Part shown: one piece after another, positions 22,348-37,932 of the stretch
Position numbering within the stretch: the first letter of the stretch is position 1
How the letters are laid out: the number at the start of each line of letters is the position of its first letter
Sequence record: PP400781
Direction: 5' to 3' (one strand)
Source: Escherichia phage FL20
Length of the DNA: 64,000 nt
The notes under the pieces: generated by a model
What the model was told of the DNA's origin: nothing
Seen by the model: the letters and a program-made list of their open reading frames with translations, nothing else
Database searches by the model: none
Program-made: the position numbers and the translations under genes

Positions 22348-22826
22348 GCTAAATCATTGCAATATTTTAGTGCCTTAGTTTGAAATTCTGCGCTGTTAAG
22401 TTCTTCATAACGGTCATAATCACCGTTTAATGCTGCCTTTCTTGCTTCTTGCTCTATCTGCATGTCAGACATGATAATACAGCGATCCCGTGCTTTCATC
22501 TTCTCAAGTTGTATAGACTCTTCTTTCTGCTTGCGCAATTCTTCTTGACGCTTCTTTTCTTCTCGTGCTTTCTCTTCCCGCGCTTCTTTGATTGCATCCT
22601 TGAACATCTGCGTTTGTGGTGCTAAACCAACTTTAACTCGATCTACGTCTCGACGTTCCATTTTAGAAATAAAGCATGATTCGATCTGATCATCACTTGC
22701 ATATGCTGTTTTACATTCACGAAGCAAGAAAACCGGATCTGATTTAGCATTCATCATAGCTTCCATGTTGGCACAACCAGTAAGCATGAATGCAGCCGCA
22801 AGACCAATCAGTTTAATCATTTTCAT
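22341..22826 (-). CDS. lipoprotein with coiled-coil segment
   Basis: Signal peptide with lipobox LTGC; charged repeat KEAREEKAREEKKRQEELRKQKEE. Confidence 0.6.
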   Translation of the reverse strand: MKMIKLIGLAAAFMLTGCANMEAMMNAKSDPVFLLRECKTAYASDDQIESCFISKMERRDVDRVKVGLAPQTQMFKDAIKEAREEKAREEKKRQEELRKQKEESIQLEKMKARDRCIIMSDMQIEQEARKAALNGDYDRYEELNSAEFQTKALKYCNDLAK

Positions 22827-23647
22827 TTAGTCACCTCACCGAAAATTGTAAATTGTCTACGATTCTCATCGCCGAAAGATTCTACTACGTCGTTTACCTT
22901 GACGCAAGTCCCGCGCGGTAAAATTACTTCACATTCGCAAGGATTCCATGCAATTGACCCAACAACAAAACCTTTATGATCTTTTACGTCAATTACCCAT
23001 GATACATTACAAGAATGTTGCATCTTTCCGGTCATTGATTCATATCGATTCTCACAATAAAGGCTAGTGCTGTTTGATAGCCATCCTCCAAAGATGATCG
23101 GTGTCATGCTGGTAGATACAAAGTTTTTAAAGGTAAACTCCTTATATTCAATGATACGCTCTATTGTCTGAATGTCAAGATGTTGACCGCGATAAAGAGT
23201 ACCGTTTAACTTTTCGGTTTTATCCATGACGCAATCCATCAAATCGACAATCTCTGATATCTCATCGGTCATGTCTTCTTCCCCTAAGAGAGCACCATTT
23301 ACCCATTCGTATTGTTCAGATACATAATCACAGATTGCATTATATTCTGCTGGTGTTATGTTGTTATGTTTGTAATGTTTGAATACATTATCTCCAAAGT
23401 CTTCGGAGTGTACTTCATACATCACATTAATGATTTTCTTGACAAATCCATAATCTTGTGTCTCACGCTCAAGGAAGCGGATAACCTTCACATAATCATC
23501 AAAGTTAATCTGATCACTGATCATCTCAGTGATCATGTAACCATTAATCCCCTCAATGTCATATGTTTCGATGTAATTATCCATACGTTCCATCATTGAT
23601 TCGCGTGATTCTTCTGAAATACGAAAATCCTGTAATTTCTTGAACAT
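22823..23647 (-). CDS. ADP-ribosyltransferase, Alt/Mod-like (short paralog)
   Basis: R-S-E triad: LYRGQ, FVSTS, CECEVILPRG; same motif order as adjacent alt. Confidence 0.7.
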   Translation of the reverse strand: MFKKLQDFRISEESRESMMERMDNYIETYDIEGINGYMITEMISDQINFDDYVKVIRFLERETQDYGFVKKIINVMYEVHSEDFGDNVFKHYKHNNITPAEYNAICDYVSEQYEWVNGALLGEEDMTDEISEIVDLMDCVMDKTEKLNGTLYRGQHLDIQTIERIIEYKEFTFKNFVSTSMTPIIFGGWLSNSTSLYCENRYESMTGKMQHSCNVSWVIDVKDHKGFVVGSIAWNPCECEVILPRGTCVKVNDVVESFGDENRRQFTIFGEVTK

Positions 23648-23725: not shown

Positions 23726-25777
23726 TTACATTTTAAATTTATCTGGCATTGCGTCTACAGATACCAGATCAGCGATAAGCTGACGTAGAGTTGCCTTATC
23801 TGCTTTCTTACGTTCGGTTTTAGCTTCGGTAATAAAGCTGGAGAAAGACAGGTCAGAAGCAGGTTTAATAACACCTTCACGGATGAATGCATCACCGTCC
23901 GCGATCATCTCGCCAGATTCTTGTAATGCTGCCAGTTCATTTTTGTTCATAATATGTGCCTCAATGTAATAAGTTTCTTGTGAATCCGTCGATGCCGTAG
24001 CACGAGTTACCGTATCAAAGGATAACACAACACCGCGAGGAAGTAAAATCTCGCATTCTTTGTAAGCAAATGCTTTGTTACCTACTGGCAAGACAGGGAT
24101 GTTTTCCGCGCCAGCAATGGAGAAAGCAACATTAGCGCCACCTTCACCACGAGAGCCAGCCATAGAATCAACACCAGCAACGGCACTAGCCACGTTTGCA
24201 TTCCAGCCGCCAAAAATGTTAGGTGCAAGGGAAGTGCTCACATAGTTTTTAAAGTAAAACGCTTTTTGCTTACGTGCAGTTTCCCACATTTGCGACCGGA
24301 AGTCCATACCACGATACAGAATAGTACCCGGATCAAGTTTAACTCCATAGTTGGAGAAGGCATTATCCAGTGCATCACACATCTTGACCAATTCTTCTGG
24401 ATCTGCGATGCCTTCAAACTCTTCCAGCTTACGGTCGGTTAGGAAGTTGTTCATATTGATGTATGCTGCATCGGCATATTCGCTCAACACAAAACCTTCC
24501 GCGCCCGGCAGATCAAGATCAATATCTGCCATCATTTCACCCATGTTGCTAGCAATTGCTTCAAACATACCGGAAGCAACATTACGTAGGGCATCGGTTT
24601 TAATCTGGGTGATGTGACTACGCAGCATTTCAGCTTTTACATCTGCTGGCATAGACTGGTCTACTCGATCCATTGCCAGGGCGGTGATCTTGTTTTCGAA
24701 TACTTCCTCGCTCATGATTTCTTTTAAGCGTTTGATTGATGCTGCGATAACTTCCGCAGACAATGGATCATATTGATCCTGAACTTTTACCAGTTCGCTT
24801 ACTGCGTATTTTGCATCGGCTTCGCTTTCAAAAATAGTACGCATGAAACCATAGCGAGTGATAATATCACTTGTCCAGTCATTCAGAGAACGAGCGGTTG
24901 AACGTTCTAAGGCTTGACGGTCAATCAGAGTATTAAACTGTTTCTTAGGTTCTGCTTCGGTGATATCTTCTTCCGGTTTAAGATTAATTTTTTCTGGATG
25001 ATTCACATAGTCGCTGTTATAGGTCGCTTGAGTTTTCAGCATTTCTTCTTTAGTCAAACGAGATTTAGCCGCTACGCGTTGTTCTGCTTCCGCGTTTCGT
25101 TCTTCTTCTGACACAAGACTAGCCGCATATGCCTCATCTTTAGTCAGAGATTCACCAGTAGCCTTAGATACCCAGCGATCACCTAAATCACTTTCTACTT
25201 TAGTGAACAAGGATTCATCAAGTTTAATCCCTTTAATCTTATCAATCGCCATCCCGCGACGCTTGACAACAACTAAAGCGATCTTTTTGCTGGTCATTAC
25301 TTCCTGCTGGAATACTTCAAACTTCGGTGTACGACGCACCAAACGCTCTATAACGCGCTTAACCAGTTCGGTCTTACCTTTCATGCGGGATACGTTAAAA
25401 CGGAACATAACAGCGTCTAATTGCGCTTTACGGGCTGTTTCCATAACCACATCAAAAGCACTTGACATAACTGCAATCGGGTTATCGCCTAGACCATTTT
25501 TAAGCTGTACAATACGACCGCTTTTGTTCATTTCGCACAGTACAACATGTGCGGTCTTGTCACCCATACGAATGATTTTAGGTGTTTTGTTGGTGAAGTT
25601 ACAAAGACGGACAATCACATCTTTATCGCGTGTCTGTACTGCAAAAAGCTGTTTAGGATTCTGCTTAGGCTTTAAGCACTGTACCGGGGCAATACTACCA
25701 AAGTTTTCTTCCTCTTCCGTCAACAGCCATTTCTCGAAAGATTCAATCATTAGATCGTCGATTTCTAAGTTAAACAT
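23726..25777 (-). CDS. alt: ADP-ribosyltransferase Alt
   Basis: 683 aa; R-S-E triad ILYRGMDF, YVSTSLAP, ECEILLPRG in C-terminal domain; position after gene 54. Confidence 0.85.
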   Translation of the reverse strand: MFNLEIDDLMIESFEKWLLTEEEENFGSIAPVQCLKPKQNPKQLFAVQTRDKDVIVRLCNFTNKTPKIIRMGDKTAHVVLCEMNKSGRIVQLKNGLGDNPIAVMSSAFDVVMETARKAQLDAVMFRFNVSRMKGKTELVKRVIERLVRRTPKFEVFQQEVMTSKKIALVVVKRRGMAIDKIKGIKLDESLFTKVESDLGDRWVSKATGESLTKDEAYAASLVSEEERNAEAEQRVAAKSRLTKEEMLKTQATYNSDYVNHPEKINLKPEEDITEAEPKKQFNTLIDRQALERSTARSLNDWTSDIITRYGFMRTIFESEADAKYAVSELVKVQDQYDPLSAEVIAASIKRLKEIMSEEVFENKITALAMDRVDQSMPADVKAEMLRSHITQIKTDALRNVASGMFEAIASNMGEMMADIDLDLPGAEGFVLSEYADAAYINMNNFLTDRKLEEFEGIADPEELVKMCDALDNAFSNYGVKLDPGTILYRGMDFRSQMWETARKQKAFYFKNYVSTSLAPNIFGGWNANVASAVAGVDSMAGSRGEGGANVAFSIAGAENIPVLPVGNKAFAYKECEILLPRGVVLSFDTVTRATASTDSQETYYIEAHIMNKNELAALQESGEMIADGDAFIREGVIKPASDLSFSSFITEAKTERKKADKATLRQLIADLVSVDAMPDKFKM

Positions 25778-26378: not shown

Positions 26379-26897
26379 TTAGTTATTTTTTAATTGCTCA
26401 TCTTGCAATAGGGCAATCACATGCTGGCGATGTTCTTCCGATTGAGGCACACCGAAAAAGTTTGTTTTGTAGAAATACTCTAATCGGTCTTCTCGTGTGC
26501 TCTCTTCCATCATGATCGCGGGTAGTCCGAGATTTCGGAAACGTCGCTTTTCTGCTGGCGTAAAATCACTGTAATACAACATAGAATCATCATTACAAGC
26601 AATGCTAAACTCATCCTTCATAAAGGAGAATATTGCGTTTAAACGCTGTTTACCGTCCACGATTTCGATCTCATAGCGAGAGCCATCATCAATCTTAGCC
26701 ATTGCGATAGCACCAACCGGAAAATCATTAATCAGGTTTTCGATAAACATACGTTTGTTTTCGGTGTCCCATACTAAAGGACGCTGATAATCTGGGTTCA
26801 TGTTGATATAGCCATCTTCTAACCATGCATCATAAACAGAGATGACAAAGTTTTTAGTATTGGTATAGTAACGGCGTTTAGGCGTTAAACGGTTCAT
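26379..26897 (-). CDS. DUF262 (ParB/GmrSD N-terminal-like) domain protein
   Basis: DYQRPLVW and IVDGKQRL match DUF262 QR and DGQQR motifs; start at MNRL coupled 1 nt after upstream stop with AGGAG RBS. Confidence 0.65.
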   Translation of the reverse strand: MNRLTPKRRYYTNTKNFVISVYDAWLEDGYINMNPDYQRPLVWDTENKRMFIENLINDFPVGAIAMAKIDDGSRYEIEIVDGKQRLNAIFSFMKDEFSIACNDDSMLYYSDFTPAEKRRFRNLGLPAIMMEESTREDRLEYFYKTNFFGVPQSEEHRQHVIALLQDEQLKNN

Positions 26898-26898
26898 G

Positions 26899-27231
26899 TT
26901 ATAGTCTCCTGAATGGATCATCACGTAAATCAATATCTTTTAAGAACTCATCCCATGAATGCCGGATATTGTTCTTAATTCTCCAGATAAGCGCAGGGAT
27001 TGAACGCTCTCCCATCTGGAAGTATGGATCATATGATCCGTATGCCCAATATGCTACTACAATTCCACAATCAGCGCAATAGTATTCTATTTCACTTGCT
27101 GGCGACCAAAGTCCATCAATATGATCGGTGATCTTGCTTTCGATGTTATGGCTATGACAATCAGGGCAACGGATGCAATGACCTTGTTTATCGTAATTTG
27201 ACGTTAGCGAATACTTAAACAATCTCATCAT
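26899..27231 (-). CDS. Cys/His-rich zinc-ribbon-like protein
   Basis: CIRCPDCHSH ... CADCG paired CxxC motifs; overlaps neighbours by 4 nt. Confidence 0.5.
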   Translation of the reverse strand: MMRLFKYSLTSNYDKQGHCIRCPDCHSHNIESKITDHIDGLWSPASEIEYYCADCGIVVAYWAYGSYDPYFQMGERSIPALIWRIKNNIRHSWDEFLKDIDLRDDPFRRL

Positions 27232-33393: not shown

Positions 33394-33456
33394 TTTTGAT
33401 TCTCCTAGTTCGTTTCGGTATGTGTGTATTATAGGGGATCGGTGATCCCCTGTCAA
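33394..33456 (-). promoter_or_regulatory. PeSL-like early promoter cassette
   Basis: TTGACA / GGGGATCACCGATCCCC / TATAAT / leader / RBS. Confidence 0.7.
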
Positions 33457-33469
33457 CAACTTTTCTGAA

Positions 33470-33946
33470 TTATTTTTCTTGATGCTCGCGCTCGTACTTT
33501 TCGAAATAAAATTCTACTGGCTGGTCATGAATTGACAGCAAGCCAAAGCGTTTAGCCGCTCGCAATCCCATATTGCGCTGAATGTACTTCTGGAAGTTCT
33601 CGCGTATACACTTACGCCAGTATTCTAAGCCCATACAGCTTTTATAAAGATTGCATTGCACACACGCCGGATTCATGTTATCAAGTATATCATGCTCCGG
33701 TTTATGCATTCCTACAACCTTATACTTCCACGATCCATCATCATTACGGGCAATTCGTCCATTTTCATCATAGACTACCTTTGAGCGTCGCAATACTGGT
33801 TTGATGTGGTCTGCGTGCCAGCGATCCCCTAGTTCCTCGCCACAATAGGCGCAACGTCCACCATATTTCATTTTCAGGATCTGGCGTTGCTCTTTCTTTG
33901 ACAATTTTTTAGGTTTAGGGGCTTTCGCCCCTTCATTATCACACAT
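33470..33946 (-). CDS. HNH endonuclease
   Basis: CAYCGEEL...WHADHIKP...ACVQCN HNH zinc-finger motif; overlaps ligase 3' end by 8 nt. Confidence 0.75.
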   Translation of the reverse strand: MCDNEGAKAPKPKKLSKKEQRQILKMKYGGRCAYCGEELGDRWHADHIKPVLRRSKVVYDENGRIARNDDGSWKYKVVGMHKPEHDILDNMNPACVQCNLYKSCMGLEYWRKCIRENFQKYIQRNMGLRAAKRFGLLSIHDQPVEFYFEKYEREHQEK

Positions 33947-35441
33947 CGAATACCTCTTTTACTGTATTTGCAGTGGTCTTGTCGTAGCGAATACGTTTGA
34001 TGATTGGGAGAAATAAAGAGAACTCCGGTTCATCTTCTTTACGTGATTTGCTGCGGATATACCCGTTGCATGTCATCTCAATGACTTTTCCAATCAGGTT
34101 ATGACGGTCAGACCATAACATTTCTCTGTCAAGTTCATTTCGACGGTCAAACGGAATCACACGTTCAATACCATCATCGCCTTTTTCGGTTGTGGTGTCG
34201 GTCAATCCCGATCCGGTGTTAGTCATCATTCGTCCGCACGCACTACGGACAGTAAAACCTCCTACCTTATTAGGATCTTTACTATGCGGATATACATCAA
34301 CAATTTCCGCGTCGAAGTCAATCACTTCTTTAAATTTAACCTGATCTTTACTGCGACGATCTTCAAATACACCATGTAAATTTTTAAGGATAATACCTTC
34401 TAAGCCCATGTTTACATAGCGATGATATACTTCGCGAGCTTCATCGATATTGTTAACTACAGTATTTTCGATTATCTGAACACGAGGATCGTTAAGTTCT
34501 TCAACAATCTGTTTTAGTTCTTCGAATCGATCTTTATATTGCTTCGTTGCTTTCTCGTTTCCGTAATACACATCACGGTCGATAACATCCCAGACAGTGT
34601 AAACAATACATTGGGCTTCTTCTTTTGGAATAGTTCCTTTCAGTGATTTGTTGAGGATACCATTTCCGGTCTGACGGTCTGCAACAACGGATTCTTTTAC
34701 TGCTTCCGCTACTGGCGTTAATGGCATTTCCTCTTCTTCAAATATCCATGACAGAGTACCATCATAAACGCTTTCAACGAAGTTCTGCGCTGGTGTTTGC
34801 GAAAGGGTAGGCATATATACCAATTCGCCATCTAGAACAATTCCACGGCCTCGTAGACGCTCTAAAACCGCAAACAAATCATCAAGTCCCTGATAGGTAT
34901 TACCTGAGCGGGTATAGATTGCTAATGTTTCCCCGTCAATATCAGCCATACCACGAGCGCCATCGCTTTTAAGTTGTGCATACGCCGGATACTTGATATT
35001 AGCAATAGTCTTATCAGAACATGACGATGCAAGGTGACACGGTTGCTGGGGGATCAGTTTCTTCCATACCTTGTTTGCAGTGGTAGCGGAACAACCACAT
35101 TCCAGATCACGATTCAGAACCATCATTGCAACTTTAGCATCATCTTCTGACAAGCAAGTCAGAGTATCGGTAACTAGCTGTAATGCTGCGTTACCAGTTA
35201 CTTGACGCGTGGCAAGTTTATTTTTAAAGACCTGTAATGCACCGGATAAAGACAATACAGACGAATAGCGAGATGGTTTATCGTATTTCTTTACGCCAAA
35301 CGTAACCTGTTTGCAATATGCCAGATAAAAGCATTCTTTCAGTGTTTCATTGCTTGCAGATTCTTTCAGGATCTTTTCTTTCAGCGATGTTTTGTCGGTC
35401 GCTGCAAGCTGGTTAATGATATTAAGAATTGACATTTTCAC
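33939..35441 (-). CDS. 30: ATP-dependent DNA ligase
   Basis: Adenylation motif AQLKSDGARG (KxDG), C-terminal FKEVIDFDAEIV; colinear with T4 gp30 as recalled. Confidence 0.9.
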   Translation of the reverse strand: MKMSILNIINQLAATDKTSLKEKILKESASNETLKECFYLAYCKQVTFGVKKYDKPSRYSSVLSLSGALQVFKNKLATRQVTGNAALQLVTDTLTCLSEDDAKVAMMVLNRDLECGCSATTANKVWKKLIPQQPCHLASSCSDKTIANIKYPAYAQLKSDGARGMADIDGETLAIYTRSGNTYQGLDDLFAVLERLRGRGIVLDGELVYMPTLSQTPAQNFVESVYDGTLSWIFEEEEMPLTPVAEAVKESVVADRQTGNGILNKSLKGTIPKEEAQCIVYTVWDVIDRDVYYGNEKATKQYKDRFEELKQIVEELNDPRVQIIENTVVNNIDEAREVYHRYVNMGLEGIILKNLHGVFEDRRSKDQVKFKEVIDFDAEIVDVYPHSKDPNKVGGFTVRSACGRMMTNTGSGLTDTTTEKGDDGIERVIPFDRRNELDREMLWSDRHNLIGKVIEMTCNGYIRSKSRKEDEPEFSLFLPIIKRIRYDKTTANTVKEVFDV

Positions 35442-35901
35442 CTCGTTTTGTTAAACGTTCACGAATATCATTGAGGATACTACAAAATTCCGATTCAGTC
35501 AATATAGTCTTTAACGGATCAGTTCCACCTATGCTATGACGCAATTTCTTATTTCCGGTAGAGAGTAATGCTTTACAAAATTCTGGGTTATTCCGTGCCA
35601 TCGTAACAAATGCCAGATGTACCAGTCTGTAATAATGCTCACTCATTCGATGAATAGGGCGACCCTGAAAATATAACATGTGATTCTCAATCTTTTCAGT
35701 TCTTCCGGTTCTTTTTGCTTTGCCACCGTGCATCAAAAAGATTTCTCTTTGTCTCTGAGGGTTCTTAAATCTTAGCCCCTGTAAAAATCCTTCTGTGCTG
35801 TTAATATCGCAACCAAATAGACGGAATGGTCTTTTATTGAAGTTACTCAATTCACCCGATGGATAAGGTCCACCCGCATAGATATCAATTTCAGAAGTCA
35901 T
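35422..35901 (-). CDS. NADAR (YbiA-like) domain protein
   Basis: IYAGGPYPSGELSNF...STEGFLQGLRF resembles YbiA/NADAR N-terminal core; sits in the 30.x position. Confidence 0.6.
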   Translation of the reverse strand: MTSEIDIYAGGPYPSGELSNFNKRPFRLFGCDINSTEGFLQGLRFKNPQRQREIFLMHGGKAKRTGRTEKIENHMLYFQGRPIHRMSEHYYRLVHLAFVTMARNNPEFCKALLSTGNKKLRHSIGGTDPLKTILTESEFCSILNDIRERLTKRGENVNS

Positions 35902-36055
35902 TGAAACTAATCTCGCTAATCATAGAGAACGGATCATAATCGTCATGAGGAATATCGATAGTAATCGAATGAGGATTTACCCATACACCAAACTGGTCTT
36001 CTTCGGCGAATACTTCGGTATGGATTTCGTGGATGTTTACATTCATAGTTTTCAT
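35891..36055 (-). CDS. hypothetical small protein (54 aa)
   Basis: ORF below track cutoff; stop overlaps NADAR start (ATGACTTCTGA). Confidence 0.35.
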   Translation of the reverse strand: MKTMNVNIHEIHTEVFAEEDQFGVWVNPHSITIDIPHDDYDPFSMISEISFNDF

Positions 36056-36137
36056 AATAAAATTCCTTAATAATCAATAACTTACAAAATCATATAGCCA
36101 AAATATAGGCGGGATTATTACCCGCCGTTTAAAATCA

Positions 36138-36461
36138 TTAACCGTAAACTACCACAATATTCTGTTTGTGTGTTACAGTCCATTTCAGGTCGATCTCTTC
36201 TTCCTTCTTAACGCCGTTAATAACGTCTGGATGAGGAACTTTATTAAGTTTCCCATGAGGAAGCAACACAGTCTTGCCCAGCAATTCTTTATCAACGTTA
36301 TCGCCGATATCAATAATCTTACCGACTAAAGGAATCTCTCCCATAGTTCGTTTTTGCTCGATGATAATACCAAAATCGCTCTTTACTTCGGTCCCTGCGC
36401 TTTCCGCTTTAGCTTCAATGATCACATAGTCACCAAGTGCTTTAGGAGTTTTAACGGTCAT
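36138..36461 (-). CDS. 31: co-chaperonin for GroEL (GroES-like) gp31
   Basis: 107 aa; GroES-like beta pattern, position before cd. Confidence 0.75.
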   Translation of the reverse strand: MTVKTPKALGDYVIIEAKAESAGTEVKSDFGIIIEQKRTMGEIPLVGKIIDIGDNVDKELLGKTVLLPHGKLNKVPHPDVINGVKKEEEIDLKWTVTHKQNIVVVYG

Positions 36462-36497
36462 AATTTTCTTACCTCTTCAATTCATCTCAATAATAAA

Positions 36498-37116
36498 TTA
36501 TTTATATTTCGCGACCTTTGGATTTCGCCGCAGACCGGAATGTATTTGCGCTATACAACAATAAGAAACATTAAACATATCAGCTATAATTTGCTTCTTA
36601 ACTTTTCCTTTAAGCCGCATTATTTCTTCGACTTGCGCATTTGTCAGTTTTGCCCGTGAGTGGTTTTCACCGACATTGTTATTGAGTCCAGTTATAAATG
36701 AATGTCTCATATTTTCTAGTAAGGTTACTATTTCTAGATTCCACACAAAATTGCAGGTTTTTACACCATTGATGTGATTAACCTCAAGTCCGGTAAACGT
36801 CTCCTAGAAATGCATTTGCTACAAGTCGATGTATCTTTTCGGCTTTAACTGAGATTTTACCATTGTCTTTTTGTTTTGACAATGTTGAATAATAATATCC
36901 ATATCGGTCTAAAATTGGTTTTATTATTTTACCAGCACGTTTTTGTTGTACGAGCTTAATATTACCGGGAGAAACTTCTCTATAAAATTCGATACTTCGG
37001 TCAATAGATCTCAATCTACCATAATTAGAGATTTCATACCACGGATAACCTACAGCTTGTCTCCATTCTTCCGGCGCTGGTAATATGATATTATCATCTT
37101 TTGTTTCCATTGTCAA
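36498..37116 (-). pseudogene. frameshifted NUMOD4-HNH homing endonuclease
   Basis: Upstream ORF has NUMOD4 (GYPWYEISNYGRLRS) and IHRLVANAF; HNH core EVNHINGVKTCNFVWNLEIVT...ENHSRAKLT continues in another frame. Confidence 0.6.
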
Positions 37117-37439
37117 CTGCCACCGTACATTTCGACGATCTGCGCTGGAGTCAGCCCGTCTACATTAATCAGACTATCAAGCCCAAAACTACGAAAACCT
37201 TCAACTGCAATTTCATATACTGGCAAAGATGTTTCTGATTCTTTACGCGGTTTTTCAACATTCGGAACTAACCACTTTTCGTATGTTTCGAAAGGCATCA
37301 GTGCCGGATCTCTCGTGGCGATCATCTCGCGGACAGTACCATCTTTCTTAGTAAACTGCAAAGAGTGAGTACCGACCGAAAACATTTTCTTTAGTGCTTC
37401 ACGAAGTGCGATATTATCAATTTGTTCAGTCATTATCAA
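37113..37439 (-). CDS. hypothetical protein (108 aa)
   Basis: ORF coupled between cd and the endonuclease remnant. Confidence 0.5.
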   Translation of the reverse strand: MIMTEQIDNIALREALKKMFSVGTHSLQFTKKDGTVREMIATRDPALMPFETYEKWLVPNVEKPRKESETSLPVYEIAVEGFRSFGLDSLINVDGLTPAQIVEMYGGS

Positions 37440-37932
37440 TACCCTTCAAATCAGTCAATAATGCTTTTGGAATACGCGTGATCGTAATATCTGCATTATT
37501 CAGAATATCAGCCCAATCACGCCCACCATTTCGATCATATGTGTCGCAATAGTATAGATGTTTAATTCCACTGTTTGCAATTGCTTTAGCGCAATCTGGA
37601 CATGGTGAAGCAGTACACCACATACTAGCCCCTTCAATCGATACACCGCTACGGGCAGCAAACAAAATAGCATTTAATTCAGCGTGGATCTCGTTTTTCT
37701 GTGACCATGCACTATGTTCTGGTCGTTTTTCTGGGATCATTTTGCCGTCATCATCCAGCCAGCCGTTTTTATGTGCATGACAGCTACAATTTACTTGCCC
37801 TGCTGGAGTTCCGTTAAATCCAGTAGAAATGATTCGCCCGTCTTTTTCGATCAGTGCGCCTACCTTCCACGAAACACATTTAGAGTTCTTTGCGATCAGA
37901 TAGGCGATCTGCATGTAAGTTTGTGACAACAT
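37426..37932 (-). CDS. cd: dCMP deaminase
   Basis: Zinc-binding HAELNAI and PCPDCAKAI motifs; colinear with T4 Cd. Confidence 0.9.
   Translation of the reverse strand: MLSQTYMQIAYLIAKNSKCVSWKVGALIEKDGRIISTGFNGTPAGQVNCSCHAHKNGWLDDDGKMIPEKRPEHSAWSQKNEIHAELNAILFAARSGVSIEGASMWCTASPCPDCAKAIANSGIKHLYYCDTYDRNGGRDWADILNNADITITRIPKALLTDLKGIDND

What the first reader, a model, noticed from the sequence alone, without database searches (positions are those of the whole stretch)
35422..35901. NADAR (YbiA-like) protein beside DNA ligase: candidate reverser of DNA ADP-ribosylation
The 159-aa ORF overlapping the ligase start resembles the NADAR/YbiA core (YPSGELSNF, STEGFLQGLRF). NADAR enzymes have been reported to remove ADP-ribose from guanine in DNA, which would counter DarT-type defence. 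Sitting next to ligase and the Alt ADP-ribosyltransferases links it to DNA repair and ADP-ribose metabolism.
Basis: partly seen in the sequence, partly recalled or inferred. Interest (0 to 1): 0.55.

Follow-up and report, generated by a model that had tools for sequence, protein, structure and literature searches.

The report
Phage AdfN (gp30.3) anti-DarT enzyme

Summary
The 159-aa ORF at 35422..35901 (minus strand) is real, and both quoted motifs are present. It matches Pfam PF08010 (phage protein gp30.3) at E=6.5e-38. It is 38% identical over its full length to T4 gp30.3 and sits in the syntenic gp31-to-ligase early-gene block of a Krischvirus (RB49-like) coliphage.

T4 gp30.3 has been characterised experimentally as AdfN, a guanine-ADP-ribose DNA glycohydrolase that lets T-even phages escape DarTG1 (Nat Commun 2025; Toxins 2024; HIDEN-SEQ 2025).

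The window protein keeps the catalytic Glu (E37), the phage-clade His (H122) and the C-terminal helix. It is under purifying selection (dN/dS about 0.1).

One difference stands out. The phosphate-binding Lys (T4 K43) is Arg44 here. This variant is rare (7 of 279 family domains) and is shared with Acinetobacter T4-like phages. An engineered K-to-R change in the antitoxin DarG1 kept in vitro activity but lost in vivo rescue.

Adjacency to ligase is lineage synteny, not a conserved linkage. The two ADP-ribosyltransferase genes end about 9.6 and 11.8 kb away.

Verdict: correct interpretation, already known kind, low novelty.

The parts
35422..35901 (-). adfN / gene 30.3 ortholog: 159-aa single-domain phage NADAR, a predicted guanine-N2-ADP-ribose DNA glycohydrolase
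35791..35793 (-). Codon GAA for Glu37, equivalent to the catalytic E36 of T4 AdfN (E88 in E. coli C7 DarG1)
   Evidence: Pairwise alignment. Glu in 271 of 279 family domains. Aligned to the YbiA Glu by hhalign. Mutational data in PMC11825919.
35770..35772 (-). Codon AGA for Arg44, at the position of the phosphate-binding Lys (T4 K43, DarG1 K95): a rare natural K-to-R variant
   Evidence: Lys in 267 and Arg in 7 of 279 domains. E-R-H triad in 6 of 81 viral loci. K95R data in PMC11543638.
35536..35538 (-). Codon CAT for His122, the last-strand residue that defines phage (gp30.3) NADARs; it is Glu in YbiA and Asp in DarG1
   Evidence: His in 265 of 279 domains and in 79 of 81 aligned stretches from the viral loci. 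Clade definition from PMC11125620 and PMC11543638.
35431..35496 (-). C-terminal alpha-helix (residues 136-157), corresponding to the helix missing in the inactive RB69 allele
   Evidence: DSSP on the model gives a helix at 136-157. The T4 alignment runs to the end of T4 gp30.3. The truncation phenotype is described in PMC11825919.
35891..36055 (-). Upstream 54-aa ORF of unknown function whose stop overlaps the adfN start by 11 nt (ATGACTTCTGA); probably co-transcribed and translationally coupled
   Evidence: phrog_15277 E=5e-41. The same ORF order is kept in L084.
33939..35441 (-). ATP-dependent DNA ligase (gene 30 ortholog). Its Shine-Dalgarno sequence (GAGG) and ATG lie inside the last codons of adfN. 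This is context, not a functional partner.
   Evidence: Adjacency is not conserved across the family.
36108..36126 (-). Terminator-like GC hairpin followed by a T-run, between gene 31 and the ORF54-adfN-ligase block
   Evidence: Consensus scan. RNA fold -12.7 kcal/mol, z=-2.06. Sequence. Function is inferred only.

Best explanation
The ORF is the Krischvirus ortholog of T4 gene 30.3 (adfN). It encodes a minimal, core-only NADAR-fold enzyme made early in infection. The ORF54-adfN-ligase overlaps suggest it is translationally coupled within that block.

By analogy with T4 AdfN, it hydrolyses the N-glycosidic bond between ADP-ribose and the N2 of guanine in phage DNA that the host DarT1 toxin has modified. 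This restores an intact base and allows replication to proceed on hosts carrying DarTG1.

Glu37 and His122 would position and activate the distal ribose. Arg44 would replace the usual Lys in binding the ADP-ribose phosphates.

What is shown here: homology, fold, conservation of the Glu and His residues and of the C-terminal helix, and purifying selection. What is inferred from T4: enzymatic activity, guanine specificity and protection from DarTG1. The reaction leaves no strand break, so no ligase step is required. The neighbouring ligase is a synteny feature.
For: PF08010 scores 130 bits and phrog_652 gives E=9e-45.

The protein is 38% identical to T4 gp30.3 over its full length, E=6e-30. The gene lies in the same ligase-to-gene-31 early-gene block as T4 30.3, in the same orientation, although T4 has several further small genes in that interval.

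Glu37 and His122 are conserved and the C-terminal helix is present. dN/dS is about 0.1.

The literature supports the function for T4. T4 gp30.3/AdfN removes G-ADPr in vitro, is necessary and sufficient for DarTG1 resistance in T-even infection, and E36A, K43A and C-terminal truncation all impair it (PMC11825919). Independent in vitro activity is reported in PMC11125620. Transposon insertions in adfN are lost on DarTG1 hosts. K95R in the antitoxin DarG1 keeps in vitro hydrolysis (PMC11543638).
Against: No experiment exists for this ortholog or for any Krischvirus phage; two literature searches returned nothing.

The phosphate-binding Lys is Arg44. The engineered K95R version of E. coli C7 DarG1 failed to rescue cells from DarT1 despite its in vitro activity.

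Identity to T4 AdfN is only 38%.

T4 AdfN works fully only during T-even infection, apparently needing an unidentified phage factor. Whether that factor exists in Krischvirus is unknown.

The generic NADAR Pfam and NCBIfam profiles are sub-threshold.
Confidence: 0.75

Rival explanations
1. It is an AdfN-type NADAR whose Lys-to-Arg change has shifted or weakened its function. For example, it may be tuned to a different toxin family (other DarT1 variants or pierisin/ScARP-like ADP-ribosyltransferases) or to a different substrate such as ADP-ribosylated RNA guanosine. Alternatively it may be catalytically competent in vitro but poorly protective against the E. coli C7 DarTG1.
For: Arg44 replaces a Lys that is present in 267 of 279 family domains. 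The Arg form is retained across Krischvirus and Acinetobacter T4-like phages and is under purifying selection, so it is not a recent defect. K95R in DarG1 separates in vitro activity from in vivo rescue. All NADAR families also remove G-ADPr from RNA, according to the introduction of PMC12945103.
Against: Arg is a conservative replacement that can still bind phosphate. In a rough NJ tree the Arg-bearing proteins are the nearest sampled neighbours of T4 AdfN. Nothing else in the active-site columns differs.
Confidence: 0.15
2. It acts on soluble small molecules rather than on DNA. Candidates are a YbiA-like N-glycosidase acting on riboflavin-pathway intermediates, or a hydrolase of free ADP-ribose-derived nucleotides or signals produced by host immunity, as Iyer and Aravind proposed for phage NADARs in general.
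For: The structural match to YbiA is the best one. [quoted passage not shown] Close bacterial relatives of this clade are fused to an NT5C 5'-deoxynucleotidase domain and sit beside a PRK-family kinase in Bacteroidales chromosomes, which looks like a nucleotide-metabolism context, with no ADP-ribosyltransferase (Pfam ART) hit among the called neighbours.
Against: The direct T4 ortholog acts on DNA in vitro and its loss gives a DarTG1-specific phenotype. The protein has the phage-clade His, not the YbiA Glu.
Confidence: 0.07
3. It reverses or edits modifications made by the phage's own ADP-ribosyltransferases (the Alt-like proteins encoded 9.6-11.8 kb away), so it would regulate ADP-ribosylation of host proteins rather than counter a defence system.
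For: Two PF03496 ART genes lie in the same early region. PMC9503650 notes that NADARs are co-expressed with ARTs as early genes in T4-like phages.
Against: The NADAR activities described in the papers read here are N-glycosidase reactions: removal of ADP-ribose from nucleic-acid bases (G, and C for some families), plus YbiA's action on riboflavin-pathway intermediates. None of those passages reports removal of ADP-ribose from proteins. The gene is not adjacent to the ARTs, and the T4 phenotype is explained by DarT1.
Confidence: 0.03

Closest known systems
T4 AdfN (gp30.3, NP_049816; Pfam PF08010 Phage_30_3)
   Same: Same Pfam family and the same core-only NADAR fold. Both are about 150-160 aa. 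The catalytic Glu, the clade-defining His and the C-terminal helix are all conserved. Both lie in the early-gene block between gene 31 and DNA ligase, in the same orientation.
   Different: Only 38% identical. Arg44 replaces Lys43. It abuts ligase directly, whereas T4 has genes 30.1 and 30.2 in between. There is no equivalent of T4's internal out-of-frame ORF 30.3' of at least 40 aa. It has 7 extra C-terminal residues. It is untested experimentally.
DarG1 NADAR antitoxins of DarTG1 (E. coli C7, Geobacter/Trichlorobacter lovleyi; PDB 8bat)
   Different: The antitoxins carry N-terminal extensions that form a DNA-binding channel and have Asp in the last strand. They are encoded next to their toxin. 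The phage protein is an orphan, has His at that position and lacks the extensions.
E. coli YbiA (PDB 2b3w; Pfam PF08719 NADAR)
   Different: YbiA has Glu in the last strand. It is a chromosomal gene beside dinG, in what PMC11125620 describes as a LexA-controlled operon. Its described role is as an N-glycosidase in riboflavin metabolism. Sequence similarity is sub-threshold (PF08719 15.6 bits; profile E=0.034).
AdfN(Bas32) and AdfN(Bas60), NADARs of T5-like and Vequintavirinae phages
   Same: They are phage-encoded orphan NADARs that neutralise DarT1.
   Different: They are independent acquisitions from other NADAR branches. They work without phage infection, unlike T4 AdfN. They are not PF08010-type.
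T4 AdfM (Tk.4), a macrodomain anti-DarTG2 factor
   Same: Same strategy: an orphan antitoxin-like hydrolase, inferred to strip ADP-ribose from phage DNA.
   Different: Unrelated macrodomain fold. It targets thymidine-ADPr made by DarT2.

Membership tests
Phage NADAR / AdfN clade (Pfam PF08010 Phage_30_3) | Profile match above the curated gathering score over the whole domain | tested here: met
   130.1 bits against a 36-bit cutoff, E=6.5e-38, profile positions 2-138 of 138. phrog_652 E=9e-45.
Phage NADAR / AdfN clade (Pfam PF08010 Phage_30_3) | Histidine in the last beta-strand (Glu in YbiA, Asp in DarG1) | tested here: met
   His122 (codon 35536-35538). His in 265 of 279 family domains. Definition from PMC11125620 and PMC11543638.
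Phage NADAR / AdfN clade (Pfam PF08010 Phage_30_3) | Catalytic glutamate equivalent to T4 E36 | tested here: met
   Glu37 in the EGFLQG motif.
Phage NADAR / AdfN clade (Pfam PF08010 Phage_30_3) | Phosphate-binding lysine equivalent to T4 K43 / DarG1 K95 | tested here: not met
   Arg44 instead of Lys; 267 Lys against 7 Arg in 279 domains. The change is conservative, and K95R in DarG1 keeps in vitro activity but loses in vivo rescue. This lowers certainty about full activity. It does not affect family membership, which rests on homology.
Phage NADAR / AdfN clade (Pfam PF08010 Phage_30_3) | Intact C-terminal helix (lost in the inactive RB69 allele) | tested here: met
   Predicted helix at residues 136-157. 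The alignment reaches the last residue of T4 gp30.3.
Phage NADAR / AdfN clade (Pfam PF08010 Phage_30_3) | Removes ADP-ribose from guanine in DNA and protects the phage from DarTG1 | not testable with these tools
   Shown only for T4 AdfN. No paper on Krischvirus/RB49 and DarTG was found.
NADAR superfamily (Pfam PF08719; YbiA fold) | Sequence profile match above the gathering score | tested here: not met
   PF08719 scores 15.6 bits against a 35.1-bit cutoff, E=0.02. The NCBIfam NADAR anti-phage model gives E=0.016, 14.3 bits against a 240-bit cutoff. The family profile against PDB sequences hits only YbiA, at E=0.034. hhalign against YbiA gives E=3e-5, probability 73%.
NADAR superfamily (Pfam PF08719; YbiA fold) | YbiA fold: helical core flanked by two small beta-sheets | tested here: met
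DarTG1 toxin-antitoxin system (DarG1 antitoxin) | Encoded in an operon with a DarT1 ADP-ribosyltransferase toxin | tested here: not met
   The neighbours are a 54-aa ORF, DNA ligase and an HNH endonuclease. PADLOC gave no hit. It is an orphan antitoxin-like gene, as described for AdfN.

The most novel reading that the evidence does not exclude
The Arg44 form may define a functionally distinct AdfN sub-type. It is shared by Krischvirus coliphages and two groups of Acinetobacter T4-like phages and is kept under purifying selection. One possibility is that it shows a natural Lys-to-Arg active site can give full in vivo protection, unlike engineered K95R in DarG1, which would imply compensating context. 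Another is that it has shifted specificity towards other guanine- or base-ADP-ribosylating toxins or towards RNA substrates.
Probability: 0.2. Interest if true: 0.4.

Novelty: already known. Interest (0 to 1): 0.15.

Why it matters
The result allows a specific functional name, anti-DarT factor AdfN (a NADAR DNA ADP-ribosylglycohydrolase), for a gene labelled 'hypothetical protein' in every Krischvirus record whose annotation was displayed. It also predicts that these phages resist DarTG1, which matters for choosing therapeutic phages and for predicting host range. The only non-routine point is the natural Lys-to-Arg substitution at a residue whose engineered K-to-R version uncoupled in vitro activity from in vivo rescue in DarG1. 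That makes this ortholog a convenient natural test case for what the residue does.

Tried and rejected
(1) A direct match to the generic NADAR models (PF08719 and NCBIfam NF053876) is sub-threshold. Membership in the superfamily therefore had to be settled by structure and by profile comparison.

(2) phmmer against PDB sequences gave a top hit to a D-alanine carrier-protein ligase (7vhv, E=7e-4). I rejected it as spurious. It disappears with the family profile, and no adenylating enzyme scored significantly in either structural search.

(3) PADLOC defence models gave no hit.

(4) I tested for a functional link to DNA ligase or DNA repair and rejected it. Ligase is adjacent in 2 of 81 viral loci and within 4 kb in 8 of 81. 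T4 has two genes in between. The predicted chemistry leaves no nick.

(5) A link to the Alt-like ARTs by adjacency is rejected, because they are 9.6-11.8 kb away.

(6) Literature searches for RB49 or Krischvirus together with DarTG returned nothing. No supplementary files of the AdfN paper are held as text. The Toxins 2024 supplement lists only T4, KpV477 and RL38J1 as phage NADARs.

(7) I tested for a single all-Arg clade and it is only partly supported. A rough NJ tree without bootstrap puts 11 of the 12 Arg-bearing proteins in one 12-leaf clade together with T4 (Lys), but as three separate all-Arg subclades.

(8) No convincing sigma-70-type promoter was found directly upstream of ORF54 or adfN.

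Full report
**Observation.** A 159-aa ORF with an ATG start lies at 35422..35901 on the minus strand. The 3' end of the ORF overlaps the start of a DNA ligase gene (33939..35441; PF01068 E=2.8e-22, phrog_114 E=2.9e-141). The ligase Shine-Dalgarno sequence (GAGG) and its ATG lie within the last codons of the ORF. The ORF's own ATG overlaps the stop of an upstream 54-aa ORF by 11 nt. A terminator-like hairpin separates this block from gene 31.

**Source genome.** The window comes from a Krischvirus (RB49-like) T-even coliphage. It is 98% identical in DNA to vB_EcoM_G37-3 and KFS-EC. An identical protein is encoded by phage MIZ6. Every record whose annotation was displayed for this gene calls it a hypothetical protein.

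**What it is.**
- The protein matches Pfam PF08010 (Phage_30_3) at 130 bits against a 36-bit cutoff, E=6.5e-38, over the entire model. It matches phrog_652 at E=9e-45.
- Aligned directly to T4 gp30.3 (taken from NC_000866), it is 38% identical end to end, E=6e-30.
- The genomic block (rnlA, spanins, pseT, cd, gene 31, ORF54, 30.3, ligase) has the same gene order as T4 and as a 68%-identical metagenomic relative.
- The generic NADAR models are only sub-threshold: PF08719 scores 15.6 against 35.1 bits, the NCBIfam NADAR anti-phage model gives E=0.016, and a family profile against PDB sequences hits only YbiA at E=0.034.
- Structure settles the question. An AlphaFold2 model built from a 24-sequence alignment is confident (pLDDT 89.4, pTM 0.84).
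- Its only meaningful matches in the PDB are the three solved NADARs, E. coli YbiA (2b3w), Phytophthora nicotianae NADAR with ADP-ribose (8bau) and Geobacter lovleyi DarG1 NADAR (8bat).
- hhalign of the family profile against YbiA gives E=3e-5 over 139 columns.

**What is already known.**
- T4 gp30.3 was identified bioinformatically as a phage NADAR.
- It was shown in vitro to remove ADP-ribose from guanine (PMC11125620).
- It was then shown genetically and biochemically to be AdfN, the factor that lets T-even phages replicate on DarTG1 hosts by removing DarT1-installed ADP-ribose from phage DNA (PMC11825919).
- In that work E36A and K43A impaired rescue. Removing the last 15 residues, as in the natural RB69 allele, reduced activity. 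The protein did not bind DarT1.
- Oddly, the protein worked fully only during T-even infection.
- A transposon screen independently found that 30.3/adfN is dispensable on K-12 but that insertions in it are lost on DarTG1 hosts (bioRxiv 10.1101/2025.11.20.689424).
- The phage clade is defined by a His in the last strand, where YbiA has Glu and DarG1 has Asp.

**Residue-level check.**
- Glu37 (codon 35791-35793) aligns with T4 E36 and is Glu in 271 of 279 family domains.
- His122 (35536-35538) is the clade-defining His, present in 265 of 279 domains.
- The C-terminal helix is present, predicted at residues 136-157.
- The exception is the phosphate-binding Lys. T4 K43 (DarG1 K95) is Arg44 here (codon AGA, 35770-35772). 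The family has Lys in 267 and Arg in only 7 of 279 domains.
- Among 81 viral-contig hits the triad is E-K-H in 71 and E-R-H in 6.
- The Arg-bearing proteins come from Krischvirus coliphages, Acinetobacter phage Acj61 and the Kimel/Octan/Meroveus/Apostate group of Acinetobacter phages (39 records).
- In a rough NJ tree, 11 of the 12 Arg-bearing proteins fall in one 12-leaf clade whose only Lys member is T4 AdfN. There is no bootstrap support, so I treat this only as a hint.
- The gene is under purifying selection. dN/dS is about 0.10 against the 68%-identical relative, although dS is near saturation. Against two closer Krischvirus genomes there are 9:1 and 19:3 synonymous:nonsynonymous differences. 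The Arg form is therefore maintained rather than decaying.
- This matters because engineered K95R in E. coli C7 DarG1 kept guanine-ADPr hydrolysis in vitro but no longer rescued cells from DarT1 (PMC11543638).

**Mechanism.**
- The most likely reading (about 0.75) is a functional AdfN. It would be an early, core-only NADAR that hydrolyses the ribose-C1''-to-guanine-N2 bond on DarT1-modified phage DNA, restoring the base and allowing replication.
- Homology, fold, the Glu and His residues, the helix and selection are shown here. Activity, guanine specificity and DarTG1 protection are inferred from T4.
- The main rival (about 0.15) is that the Arg substitution marks altered efficiency or specificity.
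- Two minor rivals remain. One is a soluble-substrate role, as Iyer and Aravind proposed for phage NADARs in general. It is hinted at by the Bacteroidales fusions of this domain to an NT5C deoxynucleotidase beside a PRK-family kinase.
- The other is reversal of the phage's own ART modifications.

**Context claims.**
- Adjacency to ligase is not informative. Ligase is directly adjacent only in the two Krischvirus loci of 81 and lies within 4 kb in 8 of 81.
- T4 has 30.1 and 30.2 between the two genes.
- The predicted reaction creates no nick that would need sealing.
- Two PF03496 ADP-ribosyltransferase ORFs do exist (23726..25777 and 22823..23647), but their ends are 9.6 and 11.8 kb away.

**Verdict.** However, it restates what has been published for T4 gp30.3/AdfN between 2023 and 2025. 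I found no published test of a Krischvirus ortholog, so this member is uncharacterised. The only unusual feature is the natural Lys-to-Arg active-site variant. Novelty: already known kind. Interest: low.

Noticed in passing
L085:6001-6969, L086:2827-3795, L087:1610-2578 (proteins P0009-P0122): Most of the top hits to the gp30.3 profile are roughly 322-aa two-domain proteins from Bacteroidales (named as Muribaculaceae or Prevotellaceae where a source gives a name). They combine an AdfN-type NADAR domain (PF08010) with an NT5C 5'-deoxynucleotidase domain (PF06941). They sit on contigs of up to 596 kb, directly downstream of a 557-aa PRK-family kinase and upstream of a penicillin-binding protein. 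No called neighbour has an ADP-ribosyltransferase (Pfam ART) hit. This suggests a nucleotide-metabolism role for part of this clade. I did not see it discussed in the passages I read of the AdfN and NADAR papers.
   Followed up: partly
window 36498-37116 (-), insertion near 36797: A NUMOD4/HNH homing endonuclease that is a single 203-aa gene in phage KFS-EC is split here into 110-aa and 82-aa ORFs. The cause is a 1-nt insertion in a T-run (GACGTTTACC here, GACGTTACC in KFS-EC). It is either a pseudogenised mobile endonuclease or a homopolymer sequencing error.
   Followed up: yes
window 26379-26933 (-): A 184-aa phage ORF carries a GmrSD_N (DUF262) domain (PF03235, E=7e-20), the N-terminal domain of type IV restriction enzymes that target modified DNA. 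This is unexpected in a phage early region, and it lies between the Alt-like gene and ligase.
   Followed up: no
window 22823-23647 (-) and 23726-25777 (-): Two tandem ADP-ribosyltransferase genes match PF03496: a 274-aa one (E=2.6e-15) and a 683-aa Alt-like one (E=2.2e-9). About 8 kb of mostly small ORFs separates them from ligase, whereas T4 has only alt.1 between alt and gene 30.
   Followed up: partly
window 33470-33946 (-): An HNH endonuclease (phrog_2118, E=8e-55) overlaps the ligase stop by 8 nt. Several related Krischvirus genomes cover only 85% of the 33400-37500 region, in 2-3 pieces. That could reflect presence or absence of such mobile endonuclease genes, but I did not check which segment is missing.
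   Followed up: no
window 35422-35901 compared with T4 (L002:6403-6630): T4 annotates an internal out-of-frame ORF, 30.3', inside 30.3. No ORF of 40 aa or more lies inside the window gene on either strand.
   Followed up: partly
literature (PMC11125620, methods): The Toxins 2024 paper describes its T4 gp30.3 construct as 'residues 1-208', yet the annotated T4 protein NP_049816 is 152 aa. This may count vector-encoded tag residues or may be an error. It does not affect the conclusions here.
   Followed up: no
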